From: an uncultured Clostridia bacterium
GTDB lineage: Bacteria > Bacillota > Clostridia > TANB77 > CAG-508
NCBI GenBank assembly: GCA_944386165.1
Contig: CALXAA010000002.1
Location: 32,695-96,694 of the forward strand
Direction of reading: 5' to 3'
DNA length: 64,000 bases
In this document: piece by piece, positions 40,159-64,000 of the stretch
Position numbering within the stretch: the stretch's first letter is position 1
Layout: every line of letters begins with the position of its first letter
Program-made: the position numbers and the translations under genes
Notes under the pieces: generated by a model
Databases searched by the model: none
What the model saw: the letters and a program-made list of their open reading frames with translations, nothing else
Told to the model about the DNA's origin: nothing

Positions 40159-42477
40159 TTATTTTTTATTCTTCTTCAATTTTACTACAACTGCATCTTC
40201 ATTATCAAAAATAAATCCTGAATCAGTGGTATCTGTTTGAATTGGGTCTATTTCATTTCTGTCATCAACAAAATCTATATGTTTTGGATCAAATTTTGTT
40301 TTTCGTCTATTACCATTATCTTCGTCAATAACTCCTGATGTAAATTTTTCAAAATTATATACTTTTATTGGTTGAACTTCTTTGTATTTTGCTCCAACAA
40401 AGTCTAGTTTTCCTTCATTAATTTGATATGCTCCATTATCACCTTTTAATTTAATTGCAGCACTTTTAAATGGCATTGTTCCTAATTTATTTGCTGCCCA
40501 GTAGTCTTCATAAGTATAATTTACATCACCCCATTTAGAGTCATATTCAAGTTTACTCATATCCATACTGTTTTTCCACTTCCAAGTTCTTCTTTGATAC
40601 ATTTCTTTACGCCACCACTCTAATTCTGTATTATCCGCATTTCCTAAGAAAATTTTGTTTGCACAGTTTGAAATAATTGTTTCTCTATATTTCATATCTG
40701 GTGCATTTCCTTCTAGTTGCGATAAGTTTTGTGCTGTAATTGTTGTTGCAACTTTGTATTTTCTATATAAAGTAAATATTGCTTCTGTATCTTTACATAT
40801 GAAGTCTGGGAATTCATCTATATAAAAGAAATGTGGAATTCTACTTTTTTCATTTCCTGGCCTTCTTAATACTGCATTTTGCATTGATAATATGAAAAAC
40901 AATCCAAATGCTTTATGACTAGTTCTTCCTAAGTCTCCTCTACGAGTACATACAAATGTAACTTCTCCATTTGCTAAAACTTTGTCAAAATCAATATTAT
41001 TGTGTCTATTACATAGTATTGATTTTACCCCAGGTAATCTTAATAAATTATCTAATTGTGATACTGCTAGGTATAAGTATTGTTCTGTTAGTGCTTTTCC
41101 AACTCCATTTGCATAAAAGTTTCTTTTAAAATATGCTATTTGACTTTCATATTGTTCTGCAAGTTCTGGGTCTTGACACATAATTTCACACATTTTTTCT
41201 ACTAAACTATAATTTGTAAGCATTTTTAACATATCATCTAAATTTGGTAAATTACCACTATTTAAACGAGGGTACATTTCTTTTAACATTATTGCTAAAT
41301 TTTCAATAGCTTGAATTATAAATTCTTCTCTATAAACATCATCAATTTCTGGATGAGAATTTACATACATTGCTTTTAGTGCTGATGAAATTGTTATTGC
41401 AATTTTATTTGCGTCATCATATATAAATGGATTTAATCCTATTGAATCTCTATTAGATGGATCAATAATATTGTATTTAATATGAAAATTATCACATATT
41501 TCCATCATTTTTGATGTTGATTCATAATCTGGTGATATTGATGTTATTCCTAAATCTCTGTAAGAGTATTCATCACCAAGTGTAGATAATATCATTTTAT
41601 TCATATATGATTTATATATTGGCTCTTTTCCTGGAGCTGGTGTTAACATATTTAAAGAAAAGTTTTGATTTAAATAATCATTATTATAAGGCCTATTTAA
41701 AACTGCAATACCAGTTTTTAGAGCTGTATATCCCATTTCTTTGGCATTAGCCCAATAAAAAGCTTTCTTTTCTATGTCTTTTGCAACAAAAGGCTCTATA
41801 ATTAATGATGTTTTACCTGTTCCTGATCCACCACAAACAAGTAAAGATTGATATCTTTTTTGTTCACCAAATACTACTTTTTTTCCTGTTTCAGCATCAT
41901 TACATATTGTTATATCACATGTAAATGGTCCATGTCCTTGTTTTGTGTCTGATAAATTTATTCCTTTATAATCCCAAAGTGATCTTGTCCAGTCTTTACT
42001 ATCTCCAACACCTAAACGTATGAATTTTATTACACTATAAAATGTTACTAATGGGAAATATATTGCAAGAGATGTTAGTGCTGGTCTTATTAATTCAGAA
42101 AAGTTTGTAACTAGTTCAGTATAACCAGGTAATGAAATTAAAAGTAGCCAAATACCTTGATTTACCCATTGTGTTACCATTGAAATTGCAATAATATAAA
42201 GACCTATAACATATACATAAAATAATGTTACTTTAGTATTTTTTGATGATGCAAATTCTGATGCTCCTGAAAATAAATATGCAAATACAGGACATGCTAA
42301 TGCAAATGTATACATAAATGGTCCCCAATAAGACACAGAAACTCCTGTAAATATCATAATTAACATTTCAACTAATCTGTCTATTGCTAAATAAAATGAA
42401 ATTAATGTTAACACATATGTTACAAATGTATTTCTGCTTGCATTTAATTTCTTTAAAAATTTATCAAATAATTTCAT
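40159..42477 (-). CDS. Membrane-anchored P-loop ATPase resembling type IV coupling proteins (TraG/TraD/VirD4-like)
   Basis: ~150-aa N-terminal multi-TM region; Walker A LLVCGGSGTGKTS; Walker B HFFYIDEFPDF; TITAQNLSQLEG box typical of T4CP/FtsK-like ATPases. Confidence 0.5.
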   Translation of the reverse strand: MKLFDKFLKKLNASRNTFVTYVLTLISFYLAIDRLVEMLIMIFTGVSVSYWGPFMYTFALACPVFAYLFSGASEFASSKNTKVTLFYVYVIGLYIIAISMVTQWVNQGIWLLLISLPGYTELVTNFSELIRPALTSLAIYFPLVTFYSVIKFIRLGVGDSKDWTRSLWDYKGINLSDTKQGHGPFTCDITICNDAETGKKVVFGEQKRYQSLLVCGGSGTGKTSLIIEPFVAKDIEKKAFYWANAKEMGYTALKTGIAVLNRPYNNDYLNQNFSLNMLTPAPGKEPIYKSYMNKMILSTLGDEYSYRDLGITSISPDYESTSKMMEICDNFHIKYNIIDPSNRDSIGLNPFIYDDANKIAITISSALKAMYVNSHPEIDDVYREEFIIQAIENLAIMLKEMYPRLNSGNLPNLDDMLKMLTNYSLVEKMCEIMCQDPELAEQYESQIAYFKRNFYANGVGKALTEQYLYLAVSQLDNLLRLPGVKSILCNRHNNIDFDKVLANGEVTFVCTRRGDLGRTSHKAFGLFFILSMQNAVLRRPGNEKSRIPHFFYIDEFPDFICKDTEAIFTLYRKYKVATTITAQNLSQLEGNAPDMKYRETIISNCANKIFLGNADNTELEWWRKEMYQRRTWKWKNSMDMSKLEYDSKWGDVNYTYEDYWAANKLGTMPFKSAAIKLKGDNGAYQINEGKLDFVGAKYKEVQPIKVYNFEKFTSGVIDEDNGNRRKTKFDPKHIDFVDDRNEIDPIQTDTTDSGFIFDNEDAVVVKLKKNKK

Positions 42478-47135: not shown

Positions 47136-48941
47136 TTATTCAGCCAAATTCTGCTTTTGCAATATCATACCTGATGAATTTCGAATTACAGTTTTTAAAT
47201 TATATTTTTCAATTTCTTCATCAATTTTATCATAATCTCCACCATAATCTATTTTAAATAATACTATATATTCTGTATCACTTTCCATAAATTTATCTAA
47301 ATTTTTAGTTATTTCTCCTGTTGAAGAATCTGTAAAATTATTTGGATTTTTCAATATAGAATAAATCCACCTTGCACGTCCATTATTTCCTTGAGAACGG
47401 CAGAAATATGTGCTTTTCTTTGTTTCATCAGGATCATTTATATTTTTATTATAATAATCTAATATTTTTAATTCATCTGTATATACTAATTCATATTTTT
47501 TACTTATTTCTTCTCCATTGTATTTATATATATCAAAAACGTAAAAATTCTTTTTATATACAATTGCCTCAAAAATTCCTATAGCATAAATTCCAATTAG
47601 TATATATGTTGCTATTTCTATTTTTTTGTTTTTTTGAATAATTATTTTTATTATTTCATAACTACTTGAAACTAATACTATATATGCCATATAGTAAATT
47701 TTGTAAAAATAGTATTCAGAAACAATGCTAAGTTTCATTCCTAATAAAATTAATAAATAAAATACTATTGTTGTAAATAAAAATTTATCATTAAAAATAT
47801 CTTTTTTCTTTATAAAATTATATATTAAATATATTTCTGATAATAATAAATAAGGAATTATGTTTGTAATTAAATTTTCATATATAAATCCTTCTGTTCC
47901 AATTGCAGATATATAATTTATTGGTCCAGAAGTTGTCTGCAATAATGGTAATAAAATAAAATATATTACTCCTATTAATCCAGGAATTACTAGTGTAATT
48001 ATTACATCTAGGAAAATTTCAAAATTAAATAATTTTCTTCCTTTTGCCTTATTATCACTTATTGTTTGCCATAATATAGTAATAAATACTACTGGTGCAA
48101 AATAATAATAAGAAAACATTATTCCGAAATTTAGCAAAAATAAAGCTATTCTCTTATAAAAAGTAGGTAATTTTGCTTTCATTATTATTAGTATTCCTAT
48201 TATTATATCTAGTCCTACTCCTAAATATGAAAATCCTGCAAATAAACTGTTTAGTTGATATGCTAATGCATAAAAAAATGTAAATACTAAAGCAAGTATT
48301 TTATATTTAATATTTTTACTATGCATTGCAAGTAGTACATACATTAATAGTGCGGATAAAATCCAAACTAATATATCAAATAAGAAATATAATTGGCAGA
48401 AAAATGTTTCACTTATAATACCATCAAAAAGTTTTAAGAATATTCCTGTATTTATATATGCTCCTGTCATTAAATAAGATATTCCAATCCAATTTATACT
48501 ATCTGAATTTTCTCTTGGTAATAGTGTTGAATATCTGTAAAAGTCATCAGCTGCAAAGTAATGTGTTGCAGCATCTGTAACACCATGTTTTAATTTAATG
48601 TTTACACTATAATTTTTTATTACTATGGTAATTGTTACAATTAGTATAATTATAACTGCTATTAAATCAACCCAATTAATATAATATTTTTGCATTTTTT
48701 TTGTTTTTATTAATCTAATTATTGGAAAAATTGAAAATATTAAATTTACAATAGATAGATTTAATAATGTGGATTTTATTGTTAAAAAGTACATAATTGT
48801 ACAAATAAAAATATTATAAGCTAATAAAAAACAAGCACTTATAATTATACTAAATATTAAATTTTGTTTTTCTTCTTTTTTATATATTAATAAATATGAT
48901 AAAAATAATACTAATAGTGTTAAAATATATATAATACTCAT
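47136..48941 (-). CDS. Large polytopic membrane protein (>=12 TM) with ~150-aa C-terminal soluble domain; last gene of the Tad-like operon
   Basis: 601-aa ORF; hydrophobic helices throughout; hydrophilic tail from ~aa 450. Confidence 0.4.
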   Translation of the reverse strand: MSIIYILTLLVLFLSYLLIYKKEEKQNLIFSIIISACFLLAYNIFICTIMYFLTIKSTLLNLSIVNLIFSIFPIIRLIKTKKMQKYYINWVDLIAVIIILIVTITIVIKNYSVNIKLKHGVTDAATHYFAADDFYRYSTLLPRENSDSINWIGISYLMTGAYINTGIFLKLFDGIISETFFCQLYFLFDILVWILSALLMYVLLAMHSKNIKYKILALVFTFFYALAYQLNSLFAGFSYLGVGLDIIIGILIIMKAKLPTFYKRIALFLLNFGIMFSYYYFAPVVFITILWQTISDNKAKGRKLFNFEIFLDVIITLVIPGLIGVIYFILLPLLQTTSGPINYISAIGTEGFIYENLITNIIPYLLLSEIYLIYNFIKKKDIFNDKFLFTTIVFYLLILLGMKLSIVSEYYFYKIYYMAYIVLVSSSYEIIKIIIQKNKKIEIATYILIGIYAIGIFEAIVYKKNFYVFDIYKYNGEEISKKYELVYTDELKILDYYNKNINDPDETKKSTYFCRSQGNNGRARWIYSILKNPNNFTDSSTGEITKNLDKFMESDTEYIVLFKIDYGGDYDKIDEEIEKYNLKTVIRNSSGMILQKQNLAE

Positions 48942-48990: not shown

Positions 48991-49527
48991 TTATGTTGTA
49001 GCTCCATTTACTGCAATTGTTCCAGAAGCTGTAGCAACTATTATATGTAAATCTTCTCCTTTTATTTTATAATAAATATTTTTAATAGATTGTGATAATG
49101 TTTTACTAGTATTTCTTGCAGTTACAAAAATTATATCATCTTCTTTTAATACTATTTTGTCTGCTCCTCCATCTGTATTAGATAACTTATCTTCTATTTG
49201 ACTTGTATAAATTGAATAATATTCATTTTGTCCGATTTCTTGACTTTCTTCAGTATATTTTTGTGATGCATTTTTATCTAAGATTTTCACTTCAATATCA
49301 ACTTCATAAGTGTTTCCTGAACTATTCAATCTATTTAAATATCTTTGATAATTTTCATTAGTAATTACTCCATTTTTTAGGACTTCATCTACAAAAGAAG
49401 CTGTTGCATTTTGAGCTACCAATTGTGCTATATCATCATTTCTATCTGATAATAAAACTAATGGAACTAAAAACATTAATACTGCTGCTACAATTATTCC
49501 AATTATTGATGTAGGTGTATCTTCCAT
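48991..49527 (-). CDS. Membrane-anchored protein in Tad-like locus (single N-terminal TM; possible pseudopilin/TadE-G-like)
   Basis: MEDTPTSIIGIIVAAVLMFLVPLVLLS; RBS AAAGGAGG. Confidence 0.4.
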   Translation of the reverse strand: MEDTPTSIIGIIVAAVLMFLVPLVLLSDRNDDIAQLVAQNATASFVDEVLKNGVITNENYQRYLNRLNSSGNTYEVDIEVKILDKNASQKYTEESQEIGQNEYYSIYTSQIEDKLSNTDGGADKIVLKEDDIIFVTARNTSKTLSQSIKNIYYKIKGEDLHIIVATASGTIAVNGATT

Positions 49528-49552: not shown

Positions 49553-50245
49553 TTATTGATATAATTTATAAGTTATAATTCTTTTTTTGGTCTTATTTAT
49601 TTCTGCAACTTGAGTTTCAGGTATTTCTGTACCTGCTTCAGCATCTTCTTGGTAATATTCACCTAAGATTTCAATAAATTTTTTGTCTACTAAAAAGTCA
49701 TATAATCCATCTGGATAATATATTTGTCTTTTATATTTTGTATAATATTTTTTATCGTCTTTTTGATAATTATTTCCATATAAAATAAAGTCTAAGTGTT
49801 GTATTGCATCTTCAACACCGCCTAAAACTTCTTCCTCTAGATCAACAAAATTAATTTCAATTTCTTCTCCATAATCATCTTTTTCTCTAGGCAAAACAGT
49901 AACACTTTCTCCATCAACAATTTCAGTTTCTTTACTACTATTTCTTGTCTTATAATATAAAGTAATAGGGTTACCATTTTGGTCTAAAAATAATATTTTA
50001 TAATTTTCTTTATATGCTTTATACATTGCAGGAACAATTGTTTCAACTCCAACAATTCGGTTATTATTTTCATCTACACCATTTGCTTCTGTAACATATA
50101 CATAACTTTGAGTTTTGTCTTCATTTGTCATTATATTTGTAATTGCTCTTGTAGCATTAGAAAAAGTGGATATACTAAGAGAAAGTGCAACTACAAATAT
50201 TAATACTCCAAATCCAATTTCCAATGCTTTGGTTGCGTTCTCCAT
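49553..50245 (-). CDS. Pilin-like protein paralog 4 (conserved MENATKAL N-terminus)
   Basis: MENATKALEIGFGVLIFVVALSLSIS; 5' end and RBS AGGAAAGGAG near-identical to three neighbouring genes. Confidence 0.5.
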   Translation of the reverse strand: MENATKALEIGFGVLIFVVALSLSISTFSNATRAITNIMTNEDKTQSYVYVTEANGVDENNNRIVGVETIVPAMYKAYKENYKILFLDQNGNPITLYYKTRNSSKETEIVDGESVTVLPREKDDYGEEIEINFVDLEEEVLGGVEDAIQHLDFILYGNNYQKDDKKYYTKYKRQIYYPDGLYDFLVDKKFIEILGEYYQEDAEAGTEIPETQVAEINKTKKRIITYKLYQ

Positions 50246-50274
50246 AATATATCCCTCCTTTCCTATGCTTAATT

Positions 50275-50694
50275 TTAGTTACTACCAGAACTTCCTACTT
50301 CTGTAACTGTAATTGATGTAATTAATCCAGAATTTTTGTCTTTATTACAAACTACAGTATATCTTTTACCTGTTCCTACACTAGGTTGTGTATCTGCATC
50401 TATAGCTAAAGTAACAGCACCATCTATACTGATTTTTCTTGTATCATCTGATTCTGTTAAATTATGTTGATAAACAGTTTTTATAAGAGAATTTACTCTT
50501 GAACCTGCTACAGAAGTTCCTTCATAGTTTTCATATGTAGAGTTAAATGTATTTATTTCAAGATTAGATAAAGCTTCTTCTCCACCTTGTAATTGGTCTT
50601 GTCCCATACCTACTACATATACTCCTAATGAAATTATAATTATTACAATTAATACTGCTGCCGCAATTAAAAGGGCTTTTGTTGCGTTCTCCAT
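50275..50694 (-). CDS. Pilin-like protein paralog 3 (start taken at MENATKAL ATG; track ORF begins at a GTG 9 nt upstream)
   Basis: MENATKALLIAAAVLIVIIIISLGVYVVG. Confidence 0.5.
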   Translation of the reverse strand: MENATKALLIAAAVLIVIIIISLGVYVVGMGQDQLQGGEEALSNLEINTFNSTYENYEGTSVAGSRVNSLIKTVYQHNLTESDDTRKISIDGAVTLAIDADTQPSVGTGKRYTVVCNKDKNSGLITSITVTEVGSSGSN

Positions 50695-50750
50695 ATAATT
50701 CACATCCTTCCATTTTTATTTTTTATATAAAATTGAATTTTAAAAACTTA

Positions 50751-51176
50751 TTAAATTTGTTCAAATAAAATATATTTTATTCTTCCATTTTTTTCATTAT
50801 ATTCTACTTTTGATGATTTAAATTTTGCATCTAAGAAAAACTGAACAAATTGTTCTGTTCCTTGATTGTAAATTTGCTCCATCTTATATGTCTTTTCACC
50901 TTCAGTAAGATATATTTCTATTTCTATTGAGTTTTCGTCATTTTGTATAAAAAAATTATTTTCATCTTTTTCTACACCATTTTTTATGTTTTTATCAACT
51001 GCTTTATTAATAATTGATGCAATATCTATTCCATAAATTTCCTTGTTTAAATAAATTTCAAATTCTTCATTTTCAGCAAAGATTTGACTTTTATTTATAG
51101 CAATAGAATGATAATTAAATAAAATAATGCATACAATTATAACAACAATTGCCAAAATTATTAATATTTTTTTCAT
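50751..51176 (-). CDS. Small membrane-anchored protein in Tad-like locus (start taken at MKKILIILAIVV)
   Basis: Single TM; RBS AGAGGA 4-5 nt upstream of ATG 51176. Confidence 0.4.
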   Translation of the reverse strand: MKKILIILAIVVIIVCIILFNYHSIAINKSQIFAENEEFEIYLNKEIYGIDIASIINKAVDKNIKNGVEKDENNFFIQNDENSIEIEIYLTEGEKTYKMEQIYNQGTEQFVQFFLDAKFKSSKVEYNEKNGRIKYILFEQI

Positions 51177-51227
51177 AAATTCCTCTTTAATTATAACATT
51201 TATGTTTTTTATTCGCAATAATTTAAA

Positions 51228-51731
51228 TTAAATTTTTTCAAATGTTATTTTATATACTCTTTTTGAATCTGTACTTACATCAATTTTATTGCATTTATAT
51301 TTAGAGCTATAATTATATTGTAACCATTCAGATAAAAGTTCCGGATCCCCAACAACTCTTTCTAAACTTTCATATGTTGCACTTGTTTCTTCACCTGTTT
51401 TTGGACTAATATATCCTTTTATTGTCACTTGAACATAGTTTGTAGTTCCATCACCTATATAAGAATCTCCAGTTAATTCATTTTCAAAATTGTTATCATA
51501 AGCAATATTTGCAACTGTAATAACATCTTGAAATGAAAGTTCTTCATTTTCTTCTGTTTGGTAATTAAAAAATTGAGTATTAAATTTATTTATAGCATTA
51601 TTTTCTATTATTTCCTGTGTTTCACTCATATAAGAACTTATTCCACTAAATAAATAAACTCCCATGGATAATATTATCATTCCTATTAGTACACCTGCCG
51701 CTATAAGCAAGGCTTTTGTTGCATTCTCCAT
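51228..51731 (-). CDS. Pilin-like protein paralog 2
   Basis: MENATKALLIAAGVLIGMIILSMGVYLFS; RBS AAAGGAG. Confidence 0.5.
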   Translation of the reverse strand: MENATKALLIAAGVLIGMIILSMGVYLFSGISSYMSETQEIIENNAINKFNTQFFNYQTEENEELSFQDVITVANIAYDNNFENELTGDSYIGDGTTNYVQVTIKGYISPKTGEETSATYESLERVVGDPELLSEWLQYNYSSKYKCNKIDVSTDSKRVYKITFEKI

Positions 51732-51747
51732 TAATACTCCTTTCTTA

Positions 51748-52584
51748 TTAATTAAGAATTATATTACCATTACTGTCAGTACAAACTCTAAAACTCATTT
51801 TATTTACTCTACCTGTAACAGAATCATATTCTAATTCAATACAATCAAAGTGTGCTCTTTTAAATTGAGTAAACTCATAATATTTTAAAGTAACATCTTT
51901 TATAGTTGAAACCATATCTACATATTGAGAATCTGTAGTATATGTTGTGGTATTTGAACCACAAACATTTACTTTGAAAATATTCTTTAGTAAATTTGCT
52001 CTTTTTCTTCTTGCTTCATTTCTATTAGAAATTTCATATTCATTTGATGCTCCACTATTAGTTTCTTCAACCATAATGTTTGCAATATTTGATGATAATT
52101 GTTGCAATAGAGTTTCTGTTATTCGAACAGATCCAGAAACTGATTGTAAAGTACTTATTAAACCTGTTGATGGGTCATTAACTCTACTTGAAAAATCATT
52201 TAATTTATTTTCTGTAATTTTGCTATTTGATCCACTCAAAAGATATTTATTACTATTTGCACTTTCATAATTAAATTGTTTAAACAAATCTGTACTTATA
52301 AAATCAACTTCAAACTCCATTTCTGCATAACCATTTTCAGGTTCTGTAGCATTATAATCATCAACCATATTCATAATTGAAAGTAATTCATTACCTCTAA
52401 TTTCTTGATTTTCATAACTTTCAAATTTTTTATTAAATTCTAATCTTTGTTGTTCTTCTGTCTTATTACTATTACTTTGATAAAAACCAGAAACTTGATT
52501 ATACAGTAACAAAAGTGCTGATAATATTATTAATCCAATTAATACACTAGCAACAATTAGTAAAGCTTTTGTTGCATTTTCCAT
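51748..52584 (-). CDS. Pilin-like protein paralog 1 (largest, 278 aa)
   Basis: MENATKALLIVASVLIGLIILSALLLLYNQ; RBS GAAAGGAG. Confidence 0.5.
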   Translation of the reverse strand: MENATKALLIVASVLIGLIILSALLLLYNQVSGFYQSNSNKTEEQQRLEFNKKFESYENQEIRGNELLSIMNMVDDYNATEPENGYAEMEFEVDFISTDLFKQFNYESANSNKYLLSGSNSKITENKLNDFSSRVNDPSTGLISTLQSVSGSVRITETLLQQLSSNIANIMVEETNSGASNEYEISNRNEARRKRANLLKNIFKVNVCGSNTTTYTTDSQYVDMVSTIKDVTLKYYEFTQFKRAHFDCIELEYDSVTGRVNKMSFRVCTDSNGNIILN

Positions 52585-52611: not shown

Positions 52612-54687
52612 TTATTGTAGTCCTGAAAATGCTCCAGACATACTTGTTAGTCCAATAAATACTAGTGGTACAATTAAGTATCCAACAAATAGACAAATTA
52701 ATGGGGCAAAACCTACCACTTTTCCTATTATACCTTTTTTAGATATAAATTGTTCATTTGTAGCTTTTCTCTTTTCTCTATGATAATCTCTATCTGCATC
52801 TAGCTCATCAAATGCCTCTCTAATTGGAATTTTTTCTACTGCTGCTTGCAAGCTTTCTACAATTCTTATCATAGCTTGATTTGATACTGAATTCTTTAGT
52901 TCTTCTAATGCCTCCCATGCTCCTGCTTCATAGTTATTTACACATTTTGAAATTGGTTCTTTAAATATATTAGAATATCTTTCTAGCCATTCAAGAATCA
53001 TTTCTACATTAACTCTTTCAATTTTCATAAGCATTAAAATAATTGTTTGGAATTGCATTACTTCGTTTTCCATTTCCATTTGTCTCATTCGTTTTTGGAA
53101 CATCATTAACCATACTGGTGCCATATATCCAACTATTGCAAATCCAATTGCTAATAATTCTTCAAACCATTTCATGCTTTCAGAATTAACTACATCTAAT
53201 TTGCCTAAAATTCTCTCAGCATCAGTTTCTAAATTTTCATCTGTTTCTGTATAATATTTAGATTTTATCATTTCATCTTGAATATCTTCAACTGTAATAT
53301 CAAGATCACCTTTTAATTTATTTATAAAATAATTATCTTGCTCAGTTAATTCCATAGCATTTTGCAAGTCTTTATCAGACATCGTACCAAGAACCTGAGT
53401 TCTTGTAGTTGGTTCAGTATAAACATAATTAATTGCTAGTTTATGTAATTGTGCAGTAAATACAATTGTTGCAATAAAAGTAACTATAAATAGTGCTATT
53501 CTATTTACATATACCCATTCCATTTTTGATTTTGATGCAGAATCTTTTAGCAATTTCTGTATTTTTTTATAATCTTTTGAACCTGGCTTTGGAACAAATA
53601 AATTTATAAATTTTTTCAAAATTGGATTTTTATATACTTTTTCTTGCCAAGGGTGTTCATTGTTTGTTGCTGTTTGAACTCCTCCATTATCTTTCAATTT
53701 TCTAGTTAAGATATAAGAAACAACTGTTAATATAACAATTAAAATTTGAGCAATCATTCCTAATTTCCCATTGTAAAAGCTACTAGTAAATGAGAAGTTC
53801 GACATACACCAACTTTTTAATGGCTCTAACAATAAAACTGGCACAATTGAAATTACAGATAAACTCTGAAAAACATAATTTAATTTATCTCTTTTTAAAA
53901 TTTCAATTTGCATTTCTTGTGTAATGTTATCTATGTTTTTTAAATATAAAGAAGAATTATCCTTATCTTTTCTATCTCCAAATTCTTTTGTCATATATGA
54001 TATACCAGCAAACTCTTTTAAATAACTGTTTGGAGCCACATCATAATATTTTTCAAGTTCTGTTTCAGGATCATCAGAAATTAAAATTTCATAAATTTTT
54101 TCACCTTGTTTAGAAACATTTTTTTCATCATCTAGTGAGACTTGGTAAATTGCTTCTTCAACCATATTAAATTCGTGATATGCATGTCTAATTTCTGCAA
54201 AAAAATCTACTTGTTCTTTTAACAAGTTATTATCAATTTTATCTACCATTCCATCAACCATTGTATCTATAATGAAAAGTTCAAAAATTAATAAAATACT
54301 CATTAATAAGAAATTTTCTCTTGTTAAAGAAATTGTAATTAGTATGACTGGTATTAAAATTATAATAGCCTTAAATAATATCTTTGCCGAATCTCTTCTT
54401 GTGGCATATTCATCATCTATGTTTATAATCTCTAATCTTCTACGAAGTTTATATAAATATCTTTTTAAGAAAGGTATTTTATTAAAGATAATATATGCTT
54501 TTTGATAAAAAACCTCAATTGAGAAACTGCTACTTCTAGTTCCTTGTTGTAACTTTTTTATTTGTCGGTATTCTGATTTTGCAAGTTTCTTATTCAAAAT
54601 TACATATGCTATAATAATTAACACAAATAATCCTATTGCGCCAAATAATATATATTTTAGCATATCTGTATTCATTAAATCAAACAC
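52612..54687 (-). CDS. Fused TadB/TadC-like (GspF/T2SSF-type) platform membrane protein
   Basis: 691 aa with two blocks of paired TM helices separated by cytoplasmic helical domains; immediately downstream of the CpaF-like ATPase. Confidence 0.5.
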   Translation of the reverse strand: MFDLMNTDMLKYILFGAIGLFVLIIIAYVILNKKLAKSEYRQIKKLQQGTRSSSFSIEVFYQKAYIIFNKIPFLKRYLYKLRRRLEIINIDDEYATRRDSAKILFKAIIILIPVILITISLTRENFLLMSILLIFELFIIDTMVDGMVDKIDNNLLKEQVDFFAEIRHAYHEFNMVEEAIYQVSLDDEKNVSKQGEKIYEILISDDPETELEKYYDVAPNSYLKEFAGISYMTKEFGDRKDKDNSSLYLKNIDNITQEMQIEILKRDKLNYVFQSLSVISIVPVLLLEPLKSWCMSNFSFTSSFYNGKLGMIAQILIVILTVVSYILTRKLKDNGGVQTATNNEHPWQEKVYKNPILKKFINLFVPKPGSKDYKKIQKLLKDSASKSKMEWVYVNRIALFIVTFIATIVFTAQLHKLAINYVYTEPTTRTQVLGTMSDKDLQNAMELTEQDNYFINKLKGDLDITVEDIQDEMIKSKYYTETDENLETDAERILGKLDVVNSESMKWFEELLAIGFAIVGYMAPVWLMMFQKRMRQMEMENEVMQFQTIILMLMKIERVNVEMILEWLERYSNIFKEPISKCVNNYEAGAWEALEELKNSVSNQAMIRIVESLQAAVEKIPIREAFDELDADRDYHREKRKATNEQFISKKGIIGKVVGFAPLICLFVGYLIVPLVFIGLTSMSGAFSGLQ

Positions 54688-54714: not shown

Positions 54715-56622
54715 TTATTTATTTTTGCTTTTCACAGACTTTCCCCATGTATTTTCAATAAATTTATCAAATTCAATTGCATCTGCCTCATCCATATTTG
54801 CTCTCATCTCACTAATATTTTGGTCAGAAATTTTATTTGTTAATTGGTATTCTCCATCTATATATTCTAATACATTTTGATAAACATAAAGTTTTTGTTC
54901 TGTAACTTTTGAAAAATATGTTGTTGCATTATCAAAAAATTTAACCCATTTATCATCCATATTTTTTTCAGTTCTATAATCGTAATTGTATTCTGAAGTA
55001 TCTTTTACTGGTATACATTCTGTTACTCTTTCTATATATCTTCTACCTCTAAAGTCTTTTTTTAAGTGAATATCAAAATTTAAAACTTGTACAACTTGTT
55101 CTTCTGCAGTTTTTTCATTTGTAAATACTCCTGCTCTTAACATTGAGTTTCTTAAAGCAGTTACTAAATCTGGGAATGTTTTAGCATGGTGAGTAAATAA
55201 AGTAAATTTAGAAGCAACTTGTGCAGATTGTATCATCCAAGATGCTACTGGGTCTGTTGCAACCTCACCAATGATATTAACAGAACCATCTGTTTTTTTC
55301 TGTACGTCCAAACACTCTTGACCAGAAATTGTATCTGTTTCACGCATTGATAAAATATTTCTAGTTGGATATACTTTTCTTAAGTGTAACTCAAATGCAG
55401 TTTCTGTAATACGTAAGTTCATTGTTTCATATATATTTTCAATTAATCCCATAAGTAATGTTGTTTTACCACAACCCTGCTCACCAGTAATTGAAACAAT
55501 TCTTGCACCTTTTACAAGATATTTTAATAAATCAATTGCTTTTTCCTTTCCTTGCATATCTCCTGTCCATTGTTCAACTGTTGCAAGTTTTACGTCAAAT
55601 TTTCTTACGAAAAATGCCCATGTTTCAGACATACTTGGTCTTACTACAACAACACGTGATCCGTCTTTCATTTCATTGATTTTATATCCATTTGTATCAG
55701 ACAATTGTCCTGGGTTATTATACTTATAAATATTTTGGCATACTCTTTTTAATTCTGATTCTGATCCAAATGATAAAAATGCTAAACGTATTGATTTACC
55801 TTGGAAAAATATCCAAATACTATCACATGCACGTGGAACTTTATGTTCAGCTACTTGTTCTATATAATCACCAGCTCCAGATTGTGCTACTTGATTTAAG
55901 AAACTTTCTGGTAAACCAGATACACCACCAGATACACCATCTATATTCATGTCTCTTATTTCATCTATAGAACTATATCCTTTATAATGTTGATAAATTC
56001 GTTGAACAACTACTTCTAATTTGTCTCTAAAATTAAGTATAAATCTTTCTTTTTCATAAATTTCATCAATTTCTTCAGCTGTAATAACATAAGATGGTTT
56101 TGTTTCACCTTGTAAATATTTTAAAGAAGCTAGATTATATCTTTTAATAAGTTCTGTTAAAGCTTCATATCCAAATTCTTTTTTATACATATATAGTAAA
56201 ATGTCAAATTTATCTTGTGATGATAATAAAGATGGCACATCAAAAGGGATTGCTCTAGATATGTTAGTTTCATCAACACCATATTCTTTTTCTAATATAT
56301 CAGATATTAATTCTTTTACATATTTTTTATCATTAATATCTCCATATGTACAACCTTTCAAAGCTTTTTTTAATGCATATTTTTTATTTTTTCTTCTCTT
56401 TAATTCCTCTTCAGAAAGTCCAATATCATATAAGTTTACTTTTGTAATTTCATCTAATCTCTTTTTTACATACTCTCTCATTACATCAATAGTGTATGTT
56501 TTATCATCTTTTTCAACTTCAGTTTCTACTTCAGCATTTTTGTTTTTATTTATATAATATAATAATAGTATAATAGCTATTATAAAAACTAAAATTATTA
56601 AAAGTATATTAAATAATGTCAT
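54715..56622 (-). CDS. CpaF/TadA/VirB11-family secretion ATPase with unusual N-terminal TM anchor and ~330-aa extension
   Basis: Walker A GEQGCGKTTLL; Walker B-like IIGEVATD; His-box FTHHAKT; N-terminus MTLFNILLIILVFIIAIILLLYY is hydrophobic. Confidence 0.6.
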   Translation of the reverse strand: MTLFNILLIILVFIIAIILLLYYINKNKNAEVETEVEKDDKTYTIDVMREYVKKRLDEITKVNLYDIGLSEEELKRRKNKKYALKKALKGCTYGDINDKKYVKELISDILEKEYGVDETNISRAIPFDVPSLLSSQDKFDILLYMYKKEFGYEALTELIKRYNLASLKYLQGETKPSYVITAEEIDEIYEKERFILNFRDKLEVVVQRIYQHYKGYSSIDEIRDMNIDGVSGGVSGLPESFLNQVAQSGAGDYIEQVAEHKVPRACDSIWIFFQGKSIRLAFLSFGSESELKRVCQNIYKYNNPGQLSDTNGYKINEMKDGSRVVVVRPSMSETWAFFVRKFDVKLATVEQWTGDMQGKEKAIDLLKYLVKGARIVSITGEQGCGKTTLLMGLIENIYETMNLRITETAFELHLRKVYPTRNILSMRETDTISGQECLDVQKKTDGSVNIIGEVATDPVASWMIQSAQVASKFTLFTHHAKTFPDLVTALRNSMLRAGVFTNEKTAEEQVVQVLNFDIHLKKDFRGRRYIERVTECIPVKDTSEYNYDYRTEKNMDDKWVKFFDNATTYFSKVTEQKLYVYQNVLEYIDGEYQLTNKISDQNISEMRANMDEADAIEFDKFIENTWGKSVKSKNK

Positions 56623-56626
56623 CTTA

Positions 56627-57457
56627 TCACCTCATTTGCAATTCTTGTAATCTATTTATTATGAACTCTGCTACTTTTTGCACTTCTTTCATAAAAAAGT
56701 AATTTTTATCTGTATTATCTTTTATATTACTTAATTTTAAGAATAAATCCATAACATTAGCTTCTTCTGAAGCTTCAAAATATAAAGTATTATAAGGAAT
56801 TACTAATAATTCTCCCTTTTCTTCTAAATATTTCCCAAGATTTTTTTTATTATATTTTGAGTCATTATCATATTTAGCTATTAGTACAGAATTTTTTAAA
56901 GAATTTAGATTTTTATCTTTGTTTTTTAGGTTTATATAGTTCTCAATATCGGAAAGTTTTTGAGTTGTAACATATAAATTCAAGTCTGAAATTTCTAGAA
57001 TCTGTTTTTTAATTTCCATATTTAAACGTCCATCTAAATCTACTAAAACAATGTCATAATATTGATTTGCTACTTGTAATACTTTACAATAGTTTTGATA
57101 TATCTCATTATAAATTTCTACATTTTTACCTGCAACATTATCAGATAAAGCACTAAAACCAAATAATACTTCAAATCTTCCTTTTAAAATCGCATGAGAA
57201 TAATCTGTTATAACACTTGGTTCAATTTTATTACTTGTAATTAATCTCATAAGTCCTTCTATACCATTTTCTACTTCTAAGCTGCCTGGTTCACTTATAA
57301 GTTTGCTTTTATTTTTATTTTCTTTCCAAAAGCATCTTTTAACAGTTTCATCATTAACACTTGTAGAGACTAATAATATTTTTAAATTACGTTCAATGGC
57401 CATTTTAGTTGCAATAGCAACTGTCGAAAGTGTTTGTCCGATTTGTTTTTTTATCAC
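56627..57457 (-). CDS. Degenerate ParA/MinD/CpaE-like protein (pseudo-ATPase; Walker A lost)
   Basis: TVAIATKMAIERNLKILLVS in place of GGKGGVGKTT; retains YYDIVLVDLDG Walker B-like block. Confidence 0.45.
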   Translation of the reverse strand: MIKKQIGQTLSTVAIATKMAIERNLKILLVSTSVNDETVKRCFWKENKNKSKLISEPGSLEVENGIEGLMRLITSNKIEPSVITDYSHAILKGRFEVLFGFSALSDNVAGKNVEIYNEIYQNYCKVLQVANQYYDIVLVDLDGRLNMEIKKQILEISDLNLYVTTQKLSDIENYINLKNKDKNLNSLKNSVLIAKYDNDSKYNKKNLGKYLEEKGELLVIPYNTLYFEASEEANVMDLFLKLSNIKDNTDKNYFFMKEVQKVAEFIINRLQELQMR

Positions 57458-57494: not shown

Positions 57495-58181
57495 TTATAA
57501 ATCTTTAATTATATTTTTTATATTTTTTTGACCTAATGATGGCTCTATTTCATTTACTAAATAAGTAACATTTTCTTTAAAAATGTTGCTTAAATTTTTG
57601 AATTTTATATTTTCTAATCTTTGATTTTCTATTAATGCTGCTTGATCTCCATTTTCTAATGGAAAATATAATTTTGTTTCTTCCCATTCAACCTTTAGGC
57701 CTAATGCTAAATAATCAAAATATTGTTCTTCTTCTTTAAACATCTGTTTTGAATAAAATAATTTTGACATTTTTATTGGATATTCTAAAAAGCGTAAAAG
57801 TTCAATACCTTTTTTTAATGAATATGCATCAAATGATGTAACGTAATATAATAAATCAAAACTAGATAATTCAAAATTTTCAAAACCATAATAGTCATCT
57901 ACATCAACGAAAATATAATCATAATCTAAACTATCATTTTCTTCAATTCCACAATATTCTTTTACTTGATTTATATCTCCAAATCCAACAGCTATATCTA
58001 TACCTTGGTAATCTGTTAGGTATGATATAGTTGGCATTATTGTTGGAATTACATATTTGGTTTTTTGAATTGATGTTGCATCAATAAATAATACTCTTGC
58101 TTCTGCTTTAGTTAAAATTTTAGAAATACAAAGTATTAAATCTGTTTTATCAAAAACCCCCACAAATCCAATTTTTTTCAT
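57495..58181 (-). CDS. Second degenerate ParA/CpaE-like protein
   Basis: MKKIGFVGVFDKTDL in place of a deviant Walker A; YDYIFVDVDD block. Confidence 0.4.
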   Translation of the reverse strand: MKKIGFVGVFDKTDLILCISKILTKAEARVLFIDATSIQKTKYVIPTIMPTISYLTDYQGIDIAVGFGDINQVKEYCGIEENDSLDYDYIFVDVDDYYGFENFELSSFDLLYYVTSFDAYSLKKGIELLRFLEYPIKMSKLFYSKQMFKEEEQYFDYLALGLKVEWEETKLYFPLENGDQAALIENQRLENIKFKNLSNIFKENVTYLVNEIEPSLGQKNIKNIIKDL

Positions 58182-58258: not shown

Positions 58259-59371
58259 TTACTCTACCACATCTAGAGATTCAATATAGTTTCTTCTAGC
58301 AGATTGTGCATTTGTTGTGCTTTCATCCATTCCAGTTTGAACATTTGCATTATATGATGGATCATTATTTATTGAAGATTGTAAATATTCATTTCTTGCA
58401 GTGGTTGCTGGAGCTTGATATCTTCTTCTTAATTCATTTTTTGCTTCTTCAACTACATTAGGATTTGAAATATTTCCATTTGCATCTACTCCTAATAGTG
58501 TTGTAACTGCAGAGTTTGGTCTATATGTTGGTATTGAAGCATCTTGCATTCCTGGTTCTTTGTATTTAGAAGCATATAATTTAGCTCCTTGTATACCATA
58601 AGCTTCTACTATAGCACTAGATAATGAAAGAATTTCATCCTCTCTTAAATTTAATCTAATTGTATCAGCTACATATGTCCCATCACTATTTAAAGGTATA
58701 TCTACTTGTTTCTTTGATACTACTATAAAGTTTTGTCCATCTGGAGTCATTAATCTTATATCAACATAATCTCCAGACATTAAGTCTACTGGTAAAACTA
58801 TCATATTGTAGTCTTCTACCCTTACATCATCAGTTACTGGTGCATCTGATTGTACGACTAAATTAGGTGTAATAACAGTATTTGCATCCATATCTAATTT
58901 AGCTAATACTGGTACATTATTTAATTCAATAGTTTCTGTGTTTCCATTTCTATCTTGTGTATAATAATTTCCTGTTGAAGAATCTTGGTAAACTCTTACT
59001 GTTTGTCCTTCTGCATCTGTGTAATATAGTCCTTCTGCATCTGTATTTAACATAGTTCCACTTGTTGTTTGTAGAAACCATCCACTTATTACCTCAGCTA
59101 CAGATGTAGCATTTGCTGGTATTGTACTTCTATCAACAGATTTTAATGTAAACATATCTTCTGTTAGTACTTGTCCTGATTTTACATCTTGGTTTAGTAC
59201 ATAAACTCTAGCAAGTGCAGCTTGTGCCGCATCTTGATCGTCTTTCATATTTTTTAAAAGTAATAGTAACAATACTATTATAATTCCTGTTATTAATAAT
59301 GTAATTAATACACCTGTTAAAAATGATGTTCTTGCCTTTTTTTGCATTGGATTCATTGCCATTTTTATCAC
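58259..59371 (-). CDS. CpaB/RcpC-like Flp pilus assembly protein (SAF domain)
   Basis: N-terminal TM LTGVLITLLITGIIIVLLLLLL, then SAF-like VYVLNQDVKSGQVLTEDMFTLKSV; first gene of the operon. Confidence 0.55.
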   Translation of the reverse strand: MIKMAMNPMQKKARTSFLTGVLITLLITGIIIVLLLLLLKNMKDDQDAAQAALARVYVLNQDVKSGQVLTEDMFTLKSVDRSTIPANATSVAEVISGWFLQTTSGTMLNTDAEGLYYTDAEGQTVRVYQDSSTGNYYTQDRNGNTETIELNNVPVLAKLDMDANTVITPNLVVQSDAPVTDDVRVEDYNMIVLPVDLMSGDYVDIRLMTPDGQNFIVVSKKQVDIPLNSDGTYVADTIRLNLREDEILSLSSAIVEAYGIQGAKLYASKYKEPGMQDASIPTYRPNSAVTTLLGVDANGNISNPNVVEEAKNELRRRYQAPATTARNEYLQSSINNDPSYNANVQTGMDESTTNAQSARRNYIESLDVVE

Positions 59372-59514
59372 ATTCCTTCCATTCGTTCTTTTTCTTTTTT
59401 CATTTTACAATATTTTTATTTAAAAATCAACAACAAAAGTTTATTGTAATATAAAATTAATACTGTTGTAATATTTCTGTAATATTATTATTTTTATATT
59501 ATAAATTTACATTT

Positions 59515-63096: not shown

Positions 63097-63483
63097 TTAT
63101 ATCTCCTCCTTATCAGTAAATCCAACTAAACGAGAATCTTCAATTATTACTTGATTATTTTTATCTATATTTAAATAATTTCTCACAACTAATCTTTTTA
63201 AATTATCACTTCTTAAAAACATATATTCATCAAAAAAATCTATACCTTGAGTATCATCAATTCTCTTGCTTAAAATTTTTCCATCTTTAACTATTAATCT
63301 TATTTCTAAATCTTTATTAAATAATCTAATTTGATTACACAAAGAAAATTCAACATCTTGATCAAATTTCATTTCATTGTTTTCATATTTTCCTACACAT
63401 ACTTTATTGTAAAAATAAGCTATTACATTAGCATTTTCAACATTTTCGGCTTTTATAATGTTTAAAACCATATCTTTATTCAT
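63097..63483 (-). CDS. Small protein between the two RAMP genes (start taken at MNKDMVLN; 8-nt overlap with upstream gene)
   Basis: 128 aa; no recognisable motif. Confidence 0.4.
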   Translation of the reverse strand: MNKDMVLNIIKAENVENANVIAYFYNKVCVGKYENNEMKFDQDVEFSLCNQIRLFNKDLEIRLIVKDGKILSKRIDDTQGIDFFDEYMFLRSDNLKRLVVRNYLNIDKNNQVIIEDSRLVGFTDKEEI

Positions 63484-64000
63484 CTGCCACACCTCCAAGA
63501 ATTTTACTAATAGCATTATCTAAATCCAATTTTTCTCCATTTAATGTTACATTTTCTACTTTAAATAATCCTCTACCAATTGATGTTTGTCCACCAAGTG
63601 CAACTAGTCCATTATCAATATCTTTTATAACTAATGCAATTAATCCAATTATTCTACTATTATCATTATCTTGTTTTATACTTTTCTTTACTTTTATACC
63701 AAGACAAGTATAACCATTAAAATATGCAGATTCAGAAAATAATGCTCTATCAGCTGCTCCTCCTGAAAATCTATCAATCTTATTTCTAGTTAAATCTATT
63801 TTATTTGCATTGTTAATAGTAGATTCTTCAATAATTATATTGGAAGAAAATGCTTCTTGTTCTTTACTTTTTTCTCTTCCAAACCAATCTGTTAAGATAA
63901 CACCAGAATTATGTATTAAATCATTTTTCATATATTCTAAAATTTGTCTTTTAATTAACCCATTCCAACTAGTTCCAGGAATAACAGGTTTTCCATTAGA
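63476..64000 (-). CDS. Cas7-like RAMP protein (Csm3/Cmr4/Cmr6-like), 5' end beyond window
   Basis: Frame open to the window edge: ..SNGKPVIPGTSWNGLIKRQIL (PGSSWKG-type RAMP motif), then DRFSGGAADRALF and C-terminal G-rich loop LVALGGQTSIGRGLFKV. Confidence 0.55.
   Translation of the reverse strand, partial: SNGKPVIPGTSWNGLIKRQILEYMKNDLIHNSGVILTDWFGREKSKEQEAFSSNIIIEESTINNANKIDLTRNKIDRFSGGAADRALFSESAYFNGYTCLGIKVKKSIKQDNDNSRIIGLIALVIKDIDNGLVALGGQTSIGRGLFKVENVTLNGEKLDLDNAISKILGGVADE

What the first reader, a model, noticed from the sequence alone, without database searches (positions are those of the whole stretch)
49553..52584. Four tandem paralogs share a near-identical 5' end (RBS plus first ~20 codons) but divergent C-termini
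The reverse-strand starts read atggagaacgcaacaaaagcc / atggagaatgcaacaaaagcc / atggaaaatgcaacaaaagct / atggagaacgcaaccaaagca. Each is preceded by AGGAAAGGAG, while the proteins range 139-278 aa with unrelated C-terminal domains. This is the pattern of filament-subunit gene families (archaellins, type IV pilins). It also provides homology for recombination/gene conversion, so antigenic or functional subunit switching is plausible
Basis: seen in the sequence. Interest (0 to 1): 0.55.

Follow-up and report, generated by a model that had tools for sequence, protein, structure and literature searches.

The report
Pilin-like gene cluster, TANB77 Tad-like pilus
The four look-alike gene starts belong to a set of pilin-like subunit genes in a pilus operon already reported from the uncultured gut clade TANB77; their shared start is kept by selection on the protein rather than by recombination, and it unusually has no recognisable cleavable leader peptide.

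Summary
Four minus-strand genes begin ATGGARAAYGCAACMAAAGC (4 hits, 0 expected), giving MENATKAL. Over the first 20 codons nucleotide identity is only 62-78%, and the longest exact shared run is 15 nt.

The genes are pilin-like. Each has one hydrophobic segment from residue 7. An AlphaFold2 model of the 167-aa paralog shows a 54-residue N-terminal helix and an alpha/beta head.

They lie in a 12-gene operon: CpaB-like, two small proteins, a membrane-anchored CpaF-like ATPase, a 691-aa 8-TM protein, six pilin-like genes and a polytopic membrane protein. Gene by gene this matches the TANB77 "pilus gene cluster" of Kim et al. 2024 (PMC11680825), so the locus is already published.

Subunit switching is not supported. 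Order is mostly fixed across 85 loci. Synonymous codons are no more alike within genomes (0.59) than between them (0.56-0.62).

Three of the four heads are homologous, not unrelated.

Apparently unreported: MEN at residue 1 runs straight into the helix. No class III signal peptide model matches, no prepilin peptidase lies in the operon or window, and distant systems share the feature. Assembly without prepilin-peptidase cleavage is possible but untested.

The parts
59445..59484 (-). Four direct TRTTACA boxes at an exact 11-bp period (the third is degenerate, TATTAAT). Putative activator-binding array upstream of the operon promoter.
   Evidence: Conserved in related loci: 63 of 72 have two boxes 11 bp apart, and the first box lies 53-54 nt upstream of the -35. 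Function is inferred.
59402..59430 (-). SigmaA-like promoter: TTGATT, 17-nt spacer, TAAAAT.
   Evidence: Found by the consensus scan. Positionally conserved across loci: 45 of 72 match a strict regular expression. Not shown to be active.
58259..59371 (-). CpaB/RcpC-like protein, 370 aa, one N-terminal TM segment and a SAF domain.
   Evidence: Pfam SAF 6.1e-6 (27.1 bits, above the 21-bit cut-off); TIGR03177 CpaB 1.3e-4, below its cut-off. Found in 72 loci. Kim et al. protein 927.
57495..58181 (-). Small cytoplasmic protein, 228 aa, in the position of TadZ. Possibly a degenerate ParA/MinD fold.
   Evidence: No Pfam hit. The profile search of PDB gives only MinD at E=0.26. Kim et al. report structural similarity to TadZ.
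56627..57457 (-). Second small cytoplasmic protein, 276 aa, ParA/CpaE-like at best.
   Evidence: The profile search of PDB gives CooC at 0.066 and a ParA-family ATPase (3ea0) at 0.11, neither significant. Kim et al. report structural similarity to CpaE.
54715..56622 (-). CpaF/TadA-like secretion ATPase, 635 aa, with an N-terminal TM anchor.
   Evidence: PDB CpaF (8rkd) 5.9e-7; TIGR03819 5.5e-10 and Pfam T2SSE 8.6e-5, all below curated cut-offs. TM segment at residues 3-21. 61-94% identical across loci.
52612..54687 (-). 691-aa protein with 8 hydrophobic segments, in the position of the platform protein.
   Evidence: No Pfam, NCBIfam or PDB sequence hit, even with a 30-sequence profile. The AF2 model has pLDDT 83.5 but no Foldseek-PDB hit. 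The family is large: 1139 representatives at 50% identity. Kim et al. report TadC-like and TadB-like halves by structure.
51748..52584 (-). Pilin-like paralog A, 278 aa, MENATKAL N-terminus.
   Evidence: Head residues 33 to about 90 are homologous to B, C and the 141-aa protein.
51228..51731 (-). Pilin-like paralog B, 167 aa, MENATKAL N-terminus.
   Evidence: 168 homologs, none with a functional name or a Pfam domain apart from one 224-aa chimeric-looking sequence (P0096, PF01268). AF2 pLDDT 89.8: helix 2-55, helix 67-83 and four strands. No Foldseek-PDB match.
50751..51176 (-). 141-aa head-domain paralog with a Sec-type N-terminus (MKKILIIL...) instead of MEN.
   Evidence: hhalign of its head against B: 99.2% over 121 columns. 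BLASTP 1e-4. Found in 83 loci.
50275..50694 (-). Pilin-like paralog C, 139 aa. The smallest, and a candidate major subunit (inference only).
   Evidence: It follows the longest intergenic gap in the operon, median about 70 nt. Related to a pilin-like protein of a distant system at 5e-12.
49553..50245 (-). Pilin-like paralog D, 230 aa. MENATKAL here, MENAxEAL in most orthologs. Its head is unrelated to A-C.
48991..49527 (-). Pilin-like paralog E, 178 aa, N-terminus MEDTPTSIIG..., conserved ADRNDD after the TM segment.
   Evidence: One TM segment at residues 8-26.
47136..48941 (-). Accessory 601-aa polytopic membrane protein (about 10 hydrophobic segments).
   Evidence: Present after paralog E in only 19 loci. 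40 loci carry a single-TM protein there instead, and 16 run straight into spoIVB. No family hit.

Best explanation
The flagged genes are four of six pilin-like genes (A, B, the 141-aa paralog, C, D, E). They form the distal part of one operon encoding a divergent Tad-like type IV filament machine. This is the 'pilus gene cluster' conserved in the uncultured gut Clostridia order TANB77.

The shared 5' end encodes the extreme N-terminus (M-E-N-A-T-K-A-L) and the start of the long hydrophobic helix. That helix first anchors each subunit in the membrane. In a filament it would pack in the core.

All subunits would have to fit the same platform/ATPase machine and the same helical core. This part is therefore held nearly invariant by purifying selection on the protein, while the exposed heads diverge. 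The paralogs are old and functionally specialised, presumably one major and several minor subunits. They are not a switching system.

Shown here:
- operon anatomy and synteny;
- the CpaF-like ATPase;
- one TM helix in every paralog, and a lollipop model for paralog B;
- invariance of the motif;
- absence of within-genome homogenisation.

Inferred:
- that a filament is actually made;
- which paralog is the major subunit;
- that the subunits are used without prepilin-peptidase cleavage, with the acidic residue 2 doing the charge-neutralising job of Glu5 in classical pilins.
For: - Operon content and order.
- The core genes from the CpaB-like gene to paralog E co-occur in 72-84 of 84 related loci, mostly in the same order.
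- Gene-by-gene match to Kim et al. proteins 927-937. Their lengths are 358/231/280/640/693/165/170/143/146/237/178 aa. The window has 370/228/276/635/691/278/167/141/139/230/178 aa.
- One hydrophobic segment from residue 7-8 in every paralog.
- AF2 lollipop model of paralog B, pLDDT 89.8.
- MENA[TS]KAL found 201 times in these loci, always at residue 1 behind a Shine-Dalgarno sequence.
- Synonymous-codon identity 0.591 within genomes against 0.557 and 0.616 between genomes.
- Exact shared runs of at most 15 nt.
- Systems whose platform is only 24-28% identical also have pilin-like proteins starting MENI, MENV, MDNV or MNEV directly before the TM helix.
Against: - No filament has been observed for this system; even Kim et al. 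call the pilus a hypothesis.
- No pilin, Flp, TadE or N_methyl profile matches any paralog.
- Foldseek against PDB finds no pilin for the model.
- The putative platform has no T2SSF signature by sequence, no internal duplication signal and no PDB fold match here. Its TadC/TadB assignment rests on the published Foldseek result only.
- A prepilin peptidase, one of the four universal core type IV filament proteins according to Pelicic 2023, was not found in the operon or window.
Confidence: 0.72

Rival explanations
1. Canonical prepilins with an ultra-short leader. 'MENA' would be a 4-residue leader ending in Ala, removed by a prepilin peptidase (A24 family) encoded elsewhere in the genome. The system would then be an ordinary Tad/type IV filament with a detached peptidase.
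For: - Leader peptides end in Gly or Ala (Pelicic 2023), and Ala4 is present in classes A-D.
- Some type IV filament loci, such as MSH, lack their own peptidase and borrow one (Denise et al. 2019).
- Only 64 kb of this genome could be inspected.
Against: - Position 4 is Thr in paralog E and Ile, Val or Pro in homologous pilin-like proteins of distant systems. Met-Glu/Asp-Asn at positions 1-3 is what stays conserved.
- The would-be leader is net acidic or neutral and far shorter than described leaders.
- There is no Glu at +5 of the would-be mature protein.
- No Peptidase_A24 hit among the ORFs of at least 110 aa in the gene-bearing frames of the window.
- No polytopic peptidase-like gene in the operon in TANB77 loci or in L085-L087.
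Confidence: 0.2
2. Not a pilus. The proteins would be membrane-anchored or short pseudopilus components of a secretion or DNA-uptake device resembling the Com pilus or a type II secretion pseudopilus. Alternatively they could simply be bitopic surface proteins sharing a signal-anchor.
For: - The layout of ATPase, platform and about five pilin-like genes parallels comGA-GG, which has one major and four minor pilins.
- No filament has been seen.
- The heads have no match to known pilins.
- The 141-aa paralog shows that the head domain can be exported with an ordinary Sec-type N-terminus.
Against: - An invariant first octapeptide across paralogs and across 85 loci is not a property of Sec signal-anchors.
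- The AF2 helix runs uninterrupted from residue 2 to 55 as in polymerising pilins.
- The ATPase is CpaF-like rather than ComGA-like: NF041000 ComGA scores only 5.5e-4 against 5.5e-10 for TadA.
Confidence: 0.17
3. The shared 5' ends would serve as recombination or gene-conversion substrates, allowing antigenic or functional switching between subunit genes.
For: Tandem same-strand paralogs with a shared 20-nt start. A few loci show an extra C-class copy, in the patterns ACCD and ABCCD.
Against: - Longest exact identity between paralogs is 11-15 nt.
- No excess of shared synonymous codons within genomes.
- All copies are full-length, each with its own Shine-Dalgarno sequence and start codon. There are no silent cassettes.
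- Gene order and class identity are mostly stable down to about 25-30% identity.
Confidence: 0.04

Closest known systems
TANB77 'pilus gene cluster', proteins 927-938 of HRGM_Genome_2725 (Kim et al. 2024, Nat Commun 15:10726, PMC11680825)
   Same: - Same operon, with matching gene order, lengths and TM counts for 927-937.
- The same kind of host, uncultured gut Clostridia MAGs.
- The flagged genes correspond to their pilin-like proteins 932, 933, 935 and 936. The interposed gene corresponds to 934.
   Different: - The window carries a polytopic 601-aa protein where their strain has the single-TM 621-aa 'pilin 938'.
- The paper does not mention an N-terminal motif, a signal-peptide class or a prepilin peptidase. 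The words 'prepilin', 'peptidase' and 'N-terminal' each occur 0 times.
- It calls the cluster exclusive to TANB77. Here, distant homologous systems were found in contigs of 41-52% GC.
Tad / Flp pilus (type IVc pilus), e.g. Aggregatibacter tad and Caulobacter cpa loci
   Same: - CpaF/TadA-like ATPase.
- CpaB/RcpC-like SAF-domain protein.
- Two small proteins where TadZ/CpaE sit.
- Several pilin-like genes in one operon.
   Different: - No Flp-type subunit (a small protein with the G/XXXXEY motif). The subunits here are 139-278 aa with globular heads.
- No TadV/CpaA peptidase in the locus.
- The platform is one 691-aa protein without a detectable T2SSF motif.
- The ATPase carries an N-terminal TM anchor.
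- No secretin, as expected for a monoderm.
Com pilus of monoderm bacteria (comGA-GG plus comC)
   Same: A compact operon of ATPase, platform, then about five pilin genes, in a Gram-positive lineage. A lollipop subunit with a small head.
   Different: - ComG pilins have a standard class III signal peptide and need ComC.
- The ATPase here is closer to CpaF/TadA than to ComGA.
- The CpaB-like and TadZ-like genes are absent from com operons.
Neisseria pilE/pilS type antigenic variation
   Same: Multiple pilin-related sequences with conserved 5' parts.
   Different: That system uses promoterless silent partial copies and long identical tracts. Here all copies are complete, expressed-looking genes with at most 15 nt of exact identity and no homogenisation.

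Membership tests
Type IV pilin (class III signal peptide, IPR012902 / PF07963 N_methyl; Flp PF04964; TadE PF07811) | N-terminus recognised by the curated pilin, Flp or TadE signal models | tested here: not met
   No such Pfam or NCBIfam family appears for any of the six paralogs, even at E up to 1 or 0.1.
Type IV pilin (class III signal peptide) | Hydrophilic leader peptide ending in Gly or Ala, cleaved by a prepilin peptidase | tested here: inconclusive
   - The conserved motif starts at Met1, with no upstream in-frame start.
- 'MENA' ends in Ala in classes A-D. But position 4 is Thr in class E and Ile, Val or Pro in distant homologs.
- Cleavage itself is not testable in silico.
Type IV pilin | About 20-25 hydrophobic residues forming alpha1N, and a lollipop architecture | tested here: met
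   One hydrophobic segment from residue 7-8 in each paralog. The AF2 model of paralog B has helix 2-55 plus an alpha/beta head, pLDDT 89.8. Foldseek against PDB nevertheless gives no pilin hit.
Type IV pilin | Glu at position 5 of the mature protein (frequent, not universal) | tested here: not met
   The acidic residue is at position 2 of the primary product (Glu2 in classes A-E). Position 5 is Thr, Ser or Pro.
Type IV filament machine (four core proteins, Pelicic 2023) | Extension ATPase of the PilB/GspE/TadA family | tested here: met
   CpaF in PDB at 5.9e-7; TIGR03819 at 5.5e-10; T2SSE at 8.6e-5. All are below curated cut-offs, so this is a divergent member.
Type IV filament machine | Platform protein with the T2SSF motif (IPR018076 / PF00482) | tested here: not met
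   - No hit with single sequences, half-proteins, a 30-member scan or a profile against PDB.
- No Foldseek-PDB hit and no N-half versus C-half duplication signal.
Type IV filament machine | Prepilin peptidase (Peptidase_A24) | tested here: not met
   - None among the ORFs of at least 110 aa in the gene-bearing frames of the 64-kb window.
- None among the operon genes in L001-L005 and L085-L087.
- Presence elsewhere in the genome could not be tested.
Tad / type IVc pilus | Flp-type major subunit, plus TadZ and CpaB/RcpC accessory proteins | tested here: inconclusive
   - CpaB-like: SAF 6.1e-6 and TIGR03177 1.3e-4.
- TadZ-like: only MinD at 0.26 and ParA at 0.11.
- Flp-type subunit: absent.
TANB77 pilus gene cluster (Kim et al. 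2024) | Conserved run of genes 927-937 with the stated lengths, TM counts and order | tested here: met
   Lengths 370/228/276/635/691/278/167/141/139/230/178 aa against 358/231/280/640/693/165/170/143/146/237/178 aa. The ATPase has 1 TM segment and the platform 8. Sequences of the paper's proteins were not available for direct alignment.
Recombinational pilin variation system | Long identical tracts, silent cassettes, within-genome homogenisation | tested here: not met

The most novel reading that the evidence does not exclude
These 'MEN' pilins would be the subunits of a widespread Firmicutes branch of Tad-like type IV filaments that needs no prepilin peptidase. The primary translation product (f)Met-Glu-Asn... 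would insert with essentially no cytoplasmic leader and be polymerised uncleaved. Glu2 would take the role of Glu5. That would remove one of the four components currently regarded as universal to all type IV filaments. The same family would provide the TANB77 surface structure linked to immunotherapy response.
Probability: 0.35. Interest if true: 0.8.

Novelty: new variant of a known kind. Interest (0 to 1): 0.5.

Why it matters
- The locus is not a discovery in itself. It is the TANB77 pilus cluster already tied to the response to checkpoint-blockade therapy.
- The N-terminal anatomy has apparently not been described. If the subunits are truly leaderless, the rule that every type IV filament needs a prepilin peptidase would have an exception.
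- The platform family suggests that exception would cover a large family: 1139 representatives at 50% identity.
- The invariant octapeptide (MENA[TS]KAL) and its 20-nt coding motif are practical markers for TANB77 pilin genes in metagenomes.
- The analysis removes the more exciting but unsupported idea of recombinational subunit switching.

Tried and rejected
- **Pilin fold match.** Foldseek of the paralog B model against PDB gave nothing below E=0.1.
- **T2SSF motif in the platform.** Pfam, NCBIfam and PDB sequence or profile searches, including half-proteins from four divergent systems, were all negative.
- **Internal duplication of the platform.** hhalign probability was 1.5%.
- **TadZ/ParA assignment of the two small proteins.** Only non-significant MinD, ParA and CooC hits.
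- **Second homolog search.** The search for homologous proteins on the platform listed only close relatives of 76-100% identity, so it was uninformative for remote links.
- **Sigma-70 and terminator scan.** Not above shuffles in this AT-rich DNA: 117 sites against 122 expected. Only cross-locus conservation made the promoter credible.
- **Sporulation link.** Considered because the operon always sits between a SASP/HAD gene and spoIVB. The conserved promoter looks sigmaA-like, so the idea was dropped as unsupported.
- **Literature.** 'MENATKAL' and 'leaderless pilin' each returned 0 papers. No supplementary files of Kim et al. were held.
Full report
**Observation**

The region holds five minus-strand ORFs. 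Four of them (starts 52584, 51731, 50694, 50245; 278, 167, 139 and 230 aa) begin MENATKAL.

- The degenerate 20-mer ATGGARAAYGCAACMAAAGC hits exactly these four starts. The expectation from shuffles is zero.
  - The first 15 nt are 12-14/15 identical.
  - The first 60 nt are only 62-78% identical.
  - No pair shares more than 15 consecutive identical bases.
- AGGAAAGGAG is exact before two genes only. All four do have a Shine-Dalgarno sequence.
- The heads are not all unrelated.
  - With residues 1-32 removed, profile-profile comparison links the 278-, 167- and 139-aa classes at 97-98% probability.
  - It links the 167-aa class to the interposed 141-aa gene at 99%.
  - BLASTP agrees.
  - The 230-aa head and the next gene (178 aa, MEDTPTSIIG...) stand apart.

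**Context**

All these genes lie in one same-strand block with no terminator-like site inside it. In order, the block contains:

- a CpaB-like SAF-domain protein;
- two small cytoplasmic proteins;
- a 635-aa ATPase whose best solved relative is the Tad motor CpaF (5.9e-7), and which has an N-terminal TM helix;
- a 691-aa protein with eight hydrophobic segments;
- the six pilin-like genes;
- a 601-aa polytopic protein, followed by spoIVB.

Each pilin-like protein has one hydrophobic segment starting at residue 7-8. An AlphaFold2 model of the 167-aa paralog (pLDDT 89.8) shows a continuous helix from residue 2 to 55, then a helix and a four-stranded sheet. This is the lollipop plan of type IV pilins. 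Foldseek nevertheless finds no pilin in PDB.

**Relatives**

- The 167-aa protein has 168 homologs, none with a functional name or a pilin domain (one 224-aa chimeric-looking sequence, P0096, carries an unrelated Pfam domain). All start MENATKAL.
- Scanning one genome for each of 185,579 species with that octapeptide returned 201 stretches, 156 of them confirmed. Nearly all are in uncultured gut Clostridia MAGs.
- In 85 loci the genes from the CpaB-like gene to paralog E mostly recur in the same order. 40 loci read ABCD or ABCDE and most others are subsets of that order.
- The ATPase (61-94% identical) and the 691-aa protein (56-91%) are far more conserved than the pilin-like proteins (22-85%).

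**Literature**

Kim et al. [quoted passage not shown]

- Their proteins 927-937 match the window gene for gene in length, order and TM count.
- They assign CpaB, TadZ, CpaE, TadA/CpaF and TadC+TadB by sequence or structure.
- They pilin-like from context and topology only.

The locus and its pilin interpretation are therefore already published. The paper says nothing about the N-terminal motif, the signal-peptide class or a prepilin peptidase.

**Why the 5' ends are alike**

- In 196 MENA[TS]KAL genes, synonymous codons at positions 2-8 vary freely: GAA/GAG, AAT/AAC, four Ala codons, five Leu codons.
- Paralogs within a genome share identical synonymous codons in 59.1% of comparisons.
- The between-genome figures are 61.6% for the same class and 55.7% for different classes.

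There is thus no within-genome homogenisation. Together with the 15-nt limit on exact identity and the mostly stable class order, this rejects gene conversion or switching. It points to purifying selection on the peptide.

**The unusual part**

- The conserved motif begins at the initiator Met and runs straight into the TM helix. There is no hydrophilic leader of the usual kind.
- Type IV pilins are defined by a leader ending in Gly or Ala. The prepilin peptidase is counted among four universal core proteins (Pelicic 2023).
- No pilin, Flp or TadE signal model matches.
- No Peptidase_A24 gene is in the operon or among the ORFs of at least 110 aa in the gene-bearing frames of the window.
- The 691-aa protein belongs to a large family: 1139 representatives at 50% identity.
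- Four members only 24-28% identical sit in contigs of 41-52% GC. The three contigs long enough to show it (L085-L087) have the same kind of operon.
- The pilin-like proteins of all four begin MENI..., MENV..., MDNV... or MNEV... directly before the TM helix.
- So Met-(Glu/Asp)-Asn at residues 1-3 is the conserved feature. Ala4, the only candidate -1 residue, is not conserved.
- By established knowledge, Met followed by Glu is not removed by methionine aminopeptidase.

My inference is that these subunits may be used uncleaved, with Glu2 playing the part of Glu5. This is unproven. A peptidase elsewhere in the genome that cleaves after Ala4 remains a live rival.

**Limits**

- I could not reproduce the TadC/TadB assignment of the 691-aa protein. 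Sequence and profile searches, a half-versus-half comparison and Foldseek against PDB were all negative. The larger structure libraries were offline.
- The TadZ-like assignments are likewise only hinted at.
- No experiment shows a filament.

**Verdict**

This is a real but ordinary signature of a pilin gene cluster, in a locus already in the literature. The switching hypothesis is not supported. The leaderless MEN N-terminus, shared with a broad family of related systems, is the one feature that deserves follow-up.

Noticed in passing
window 59402-59484 (minus strand), upstream of the operon's first gene: Four TRTTACA boxes at an exact 11-bp period lie 53-54 nt upstream of a conserved TTGATT-N17-TAAAAT promoter. 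63 of 72 related loci keep the boxes. This looks like a binding array for an unknown activator, and like a vegetative rather than a sporulation promoter.
   Followed up: partly
window 50751-51176 (minus strand): The 141-aa gene between paralogs B and C has a head homologous to the pilin-like heads (hhalign 99% against B). It starts MKKILIIL... like a Sec signal or anchor instead of MEN. It is conserved in 83 loci. Its role is unknown, and it may be a non-polymerising paralog.
   Followed up: partly
window 54715-56622 (minus strand), residues 3-21: The CpaF-like ATPase carries an N-terminal transmembrane helix. This is also seen in the distant systems L085-L087. Type IV filament ATPases are normally soluble.
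   Followed up: partly
window 47136-48941; loci L001-L084: The gene after paralog E is variable. 40 loci have a single-TM protein of 110-1239 aa, probably the 'pilin 938' type that Kim et al. tested on dendritic cells. 19 loci, including this window, instead have a polytopic protein of about 600 aa. 16 loci go straight to spoIVB. This strain therefore seems to lack the 938-type gene at that position.
   Followed up: partly
L085, L086, L087, L088: Related operons with MEN-type pilin-like genes occur in contigs of 41-52% GC, outside the low-GC TANB77 background. The cluster is therefore not strictly exclusive to TANB77 at the family level. L087 sits next to a 1323-aa FtsK/SpoIIIE-type ATPase.
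   Followed up: partly
intergenic region between the 141-aa gene and paralog C in many loci (e.g. L033, L018, L034, L053, L042); window 50695-50750: This is the longest intergenic gap of the operon, median about 70 nt. In many loci it contains a short GTTCG...CGA hairpin followed by AATAAACAAAAGT. No obvious hairpin is present in the window itself. It may be an RNA processing or expression-tuning element in front of the candidate major subunit.
   Followed up: no
window 61066-63931 (minus strand): RAMP-superfamily proteins (676 aa and 151 aa, Pfam RAMPs 5e-11 and 2.7e-10) indicate part of a type III-like CRISPR-Cas effector module at the window edge.
   Followed up: no
window 40159-42477 (minus strand): A 772-aa protein has TraG/TraD/VirD4-type coupling-protein domains (TraG-D_C 4.4e-9) among housekeeping genes (obg, trpS/tyrS-like, queA, tgt). 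No other conjugation genes were seen nearby.
   Followed up: no
window 6702-8516 (minus strand): A 604-aa protein has sigma-70 regions 2 and 4 confined to its first roughly 175 residues. This is an ECF-type sigma factor fused to a long C-terminal extension.
   Followed up: no
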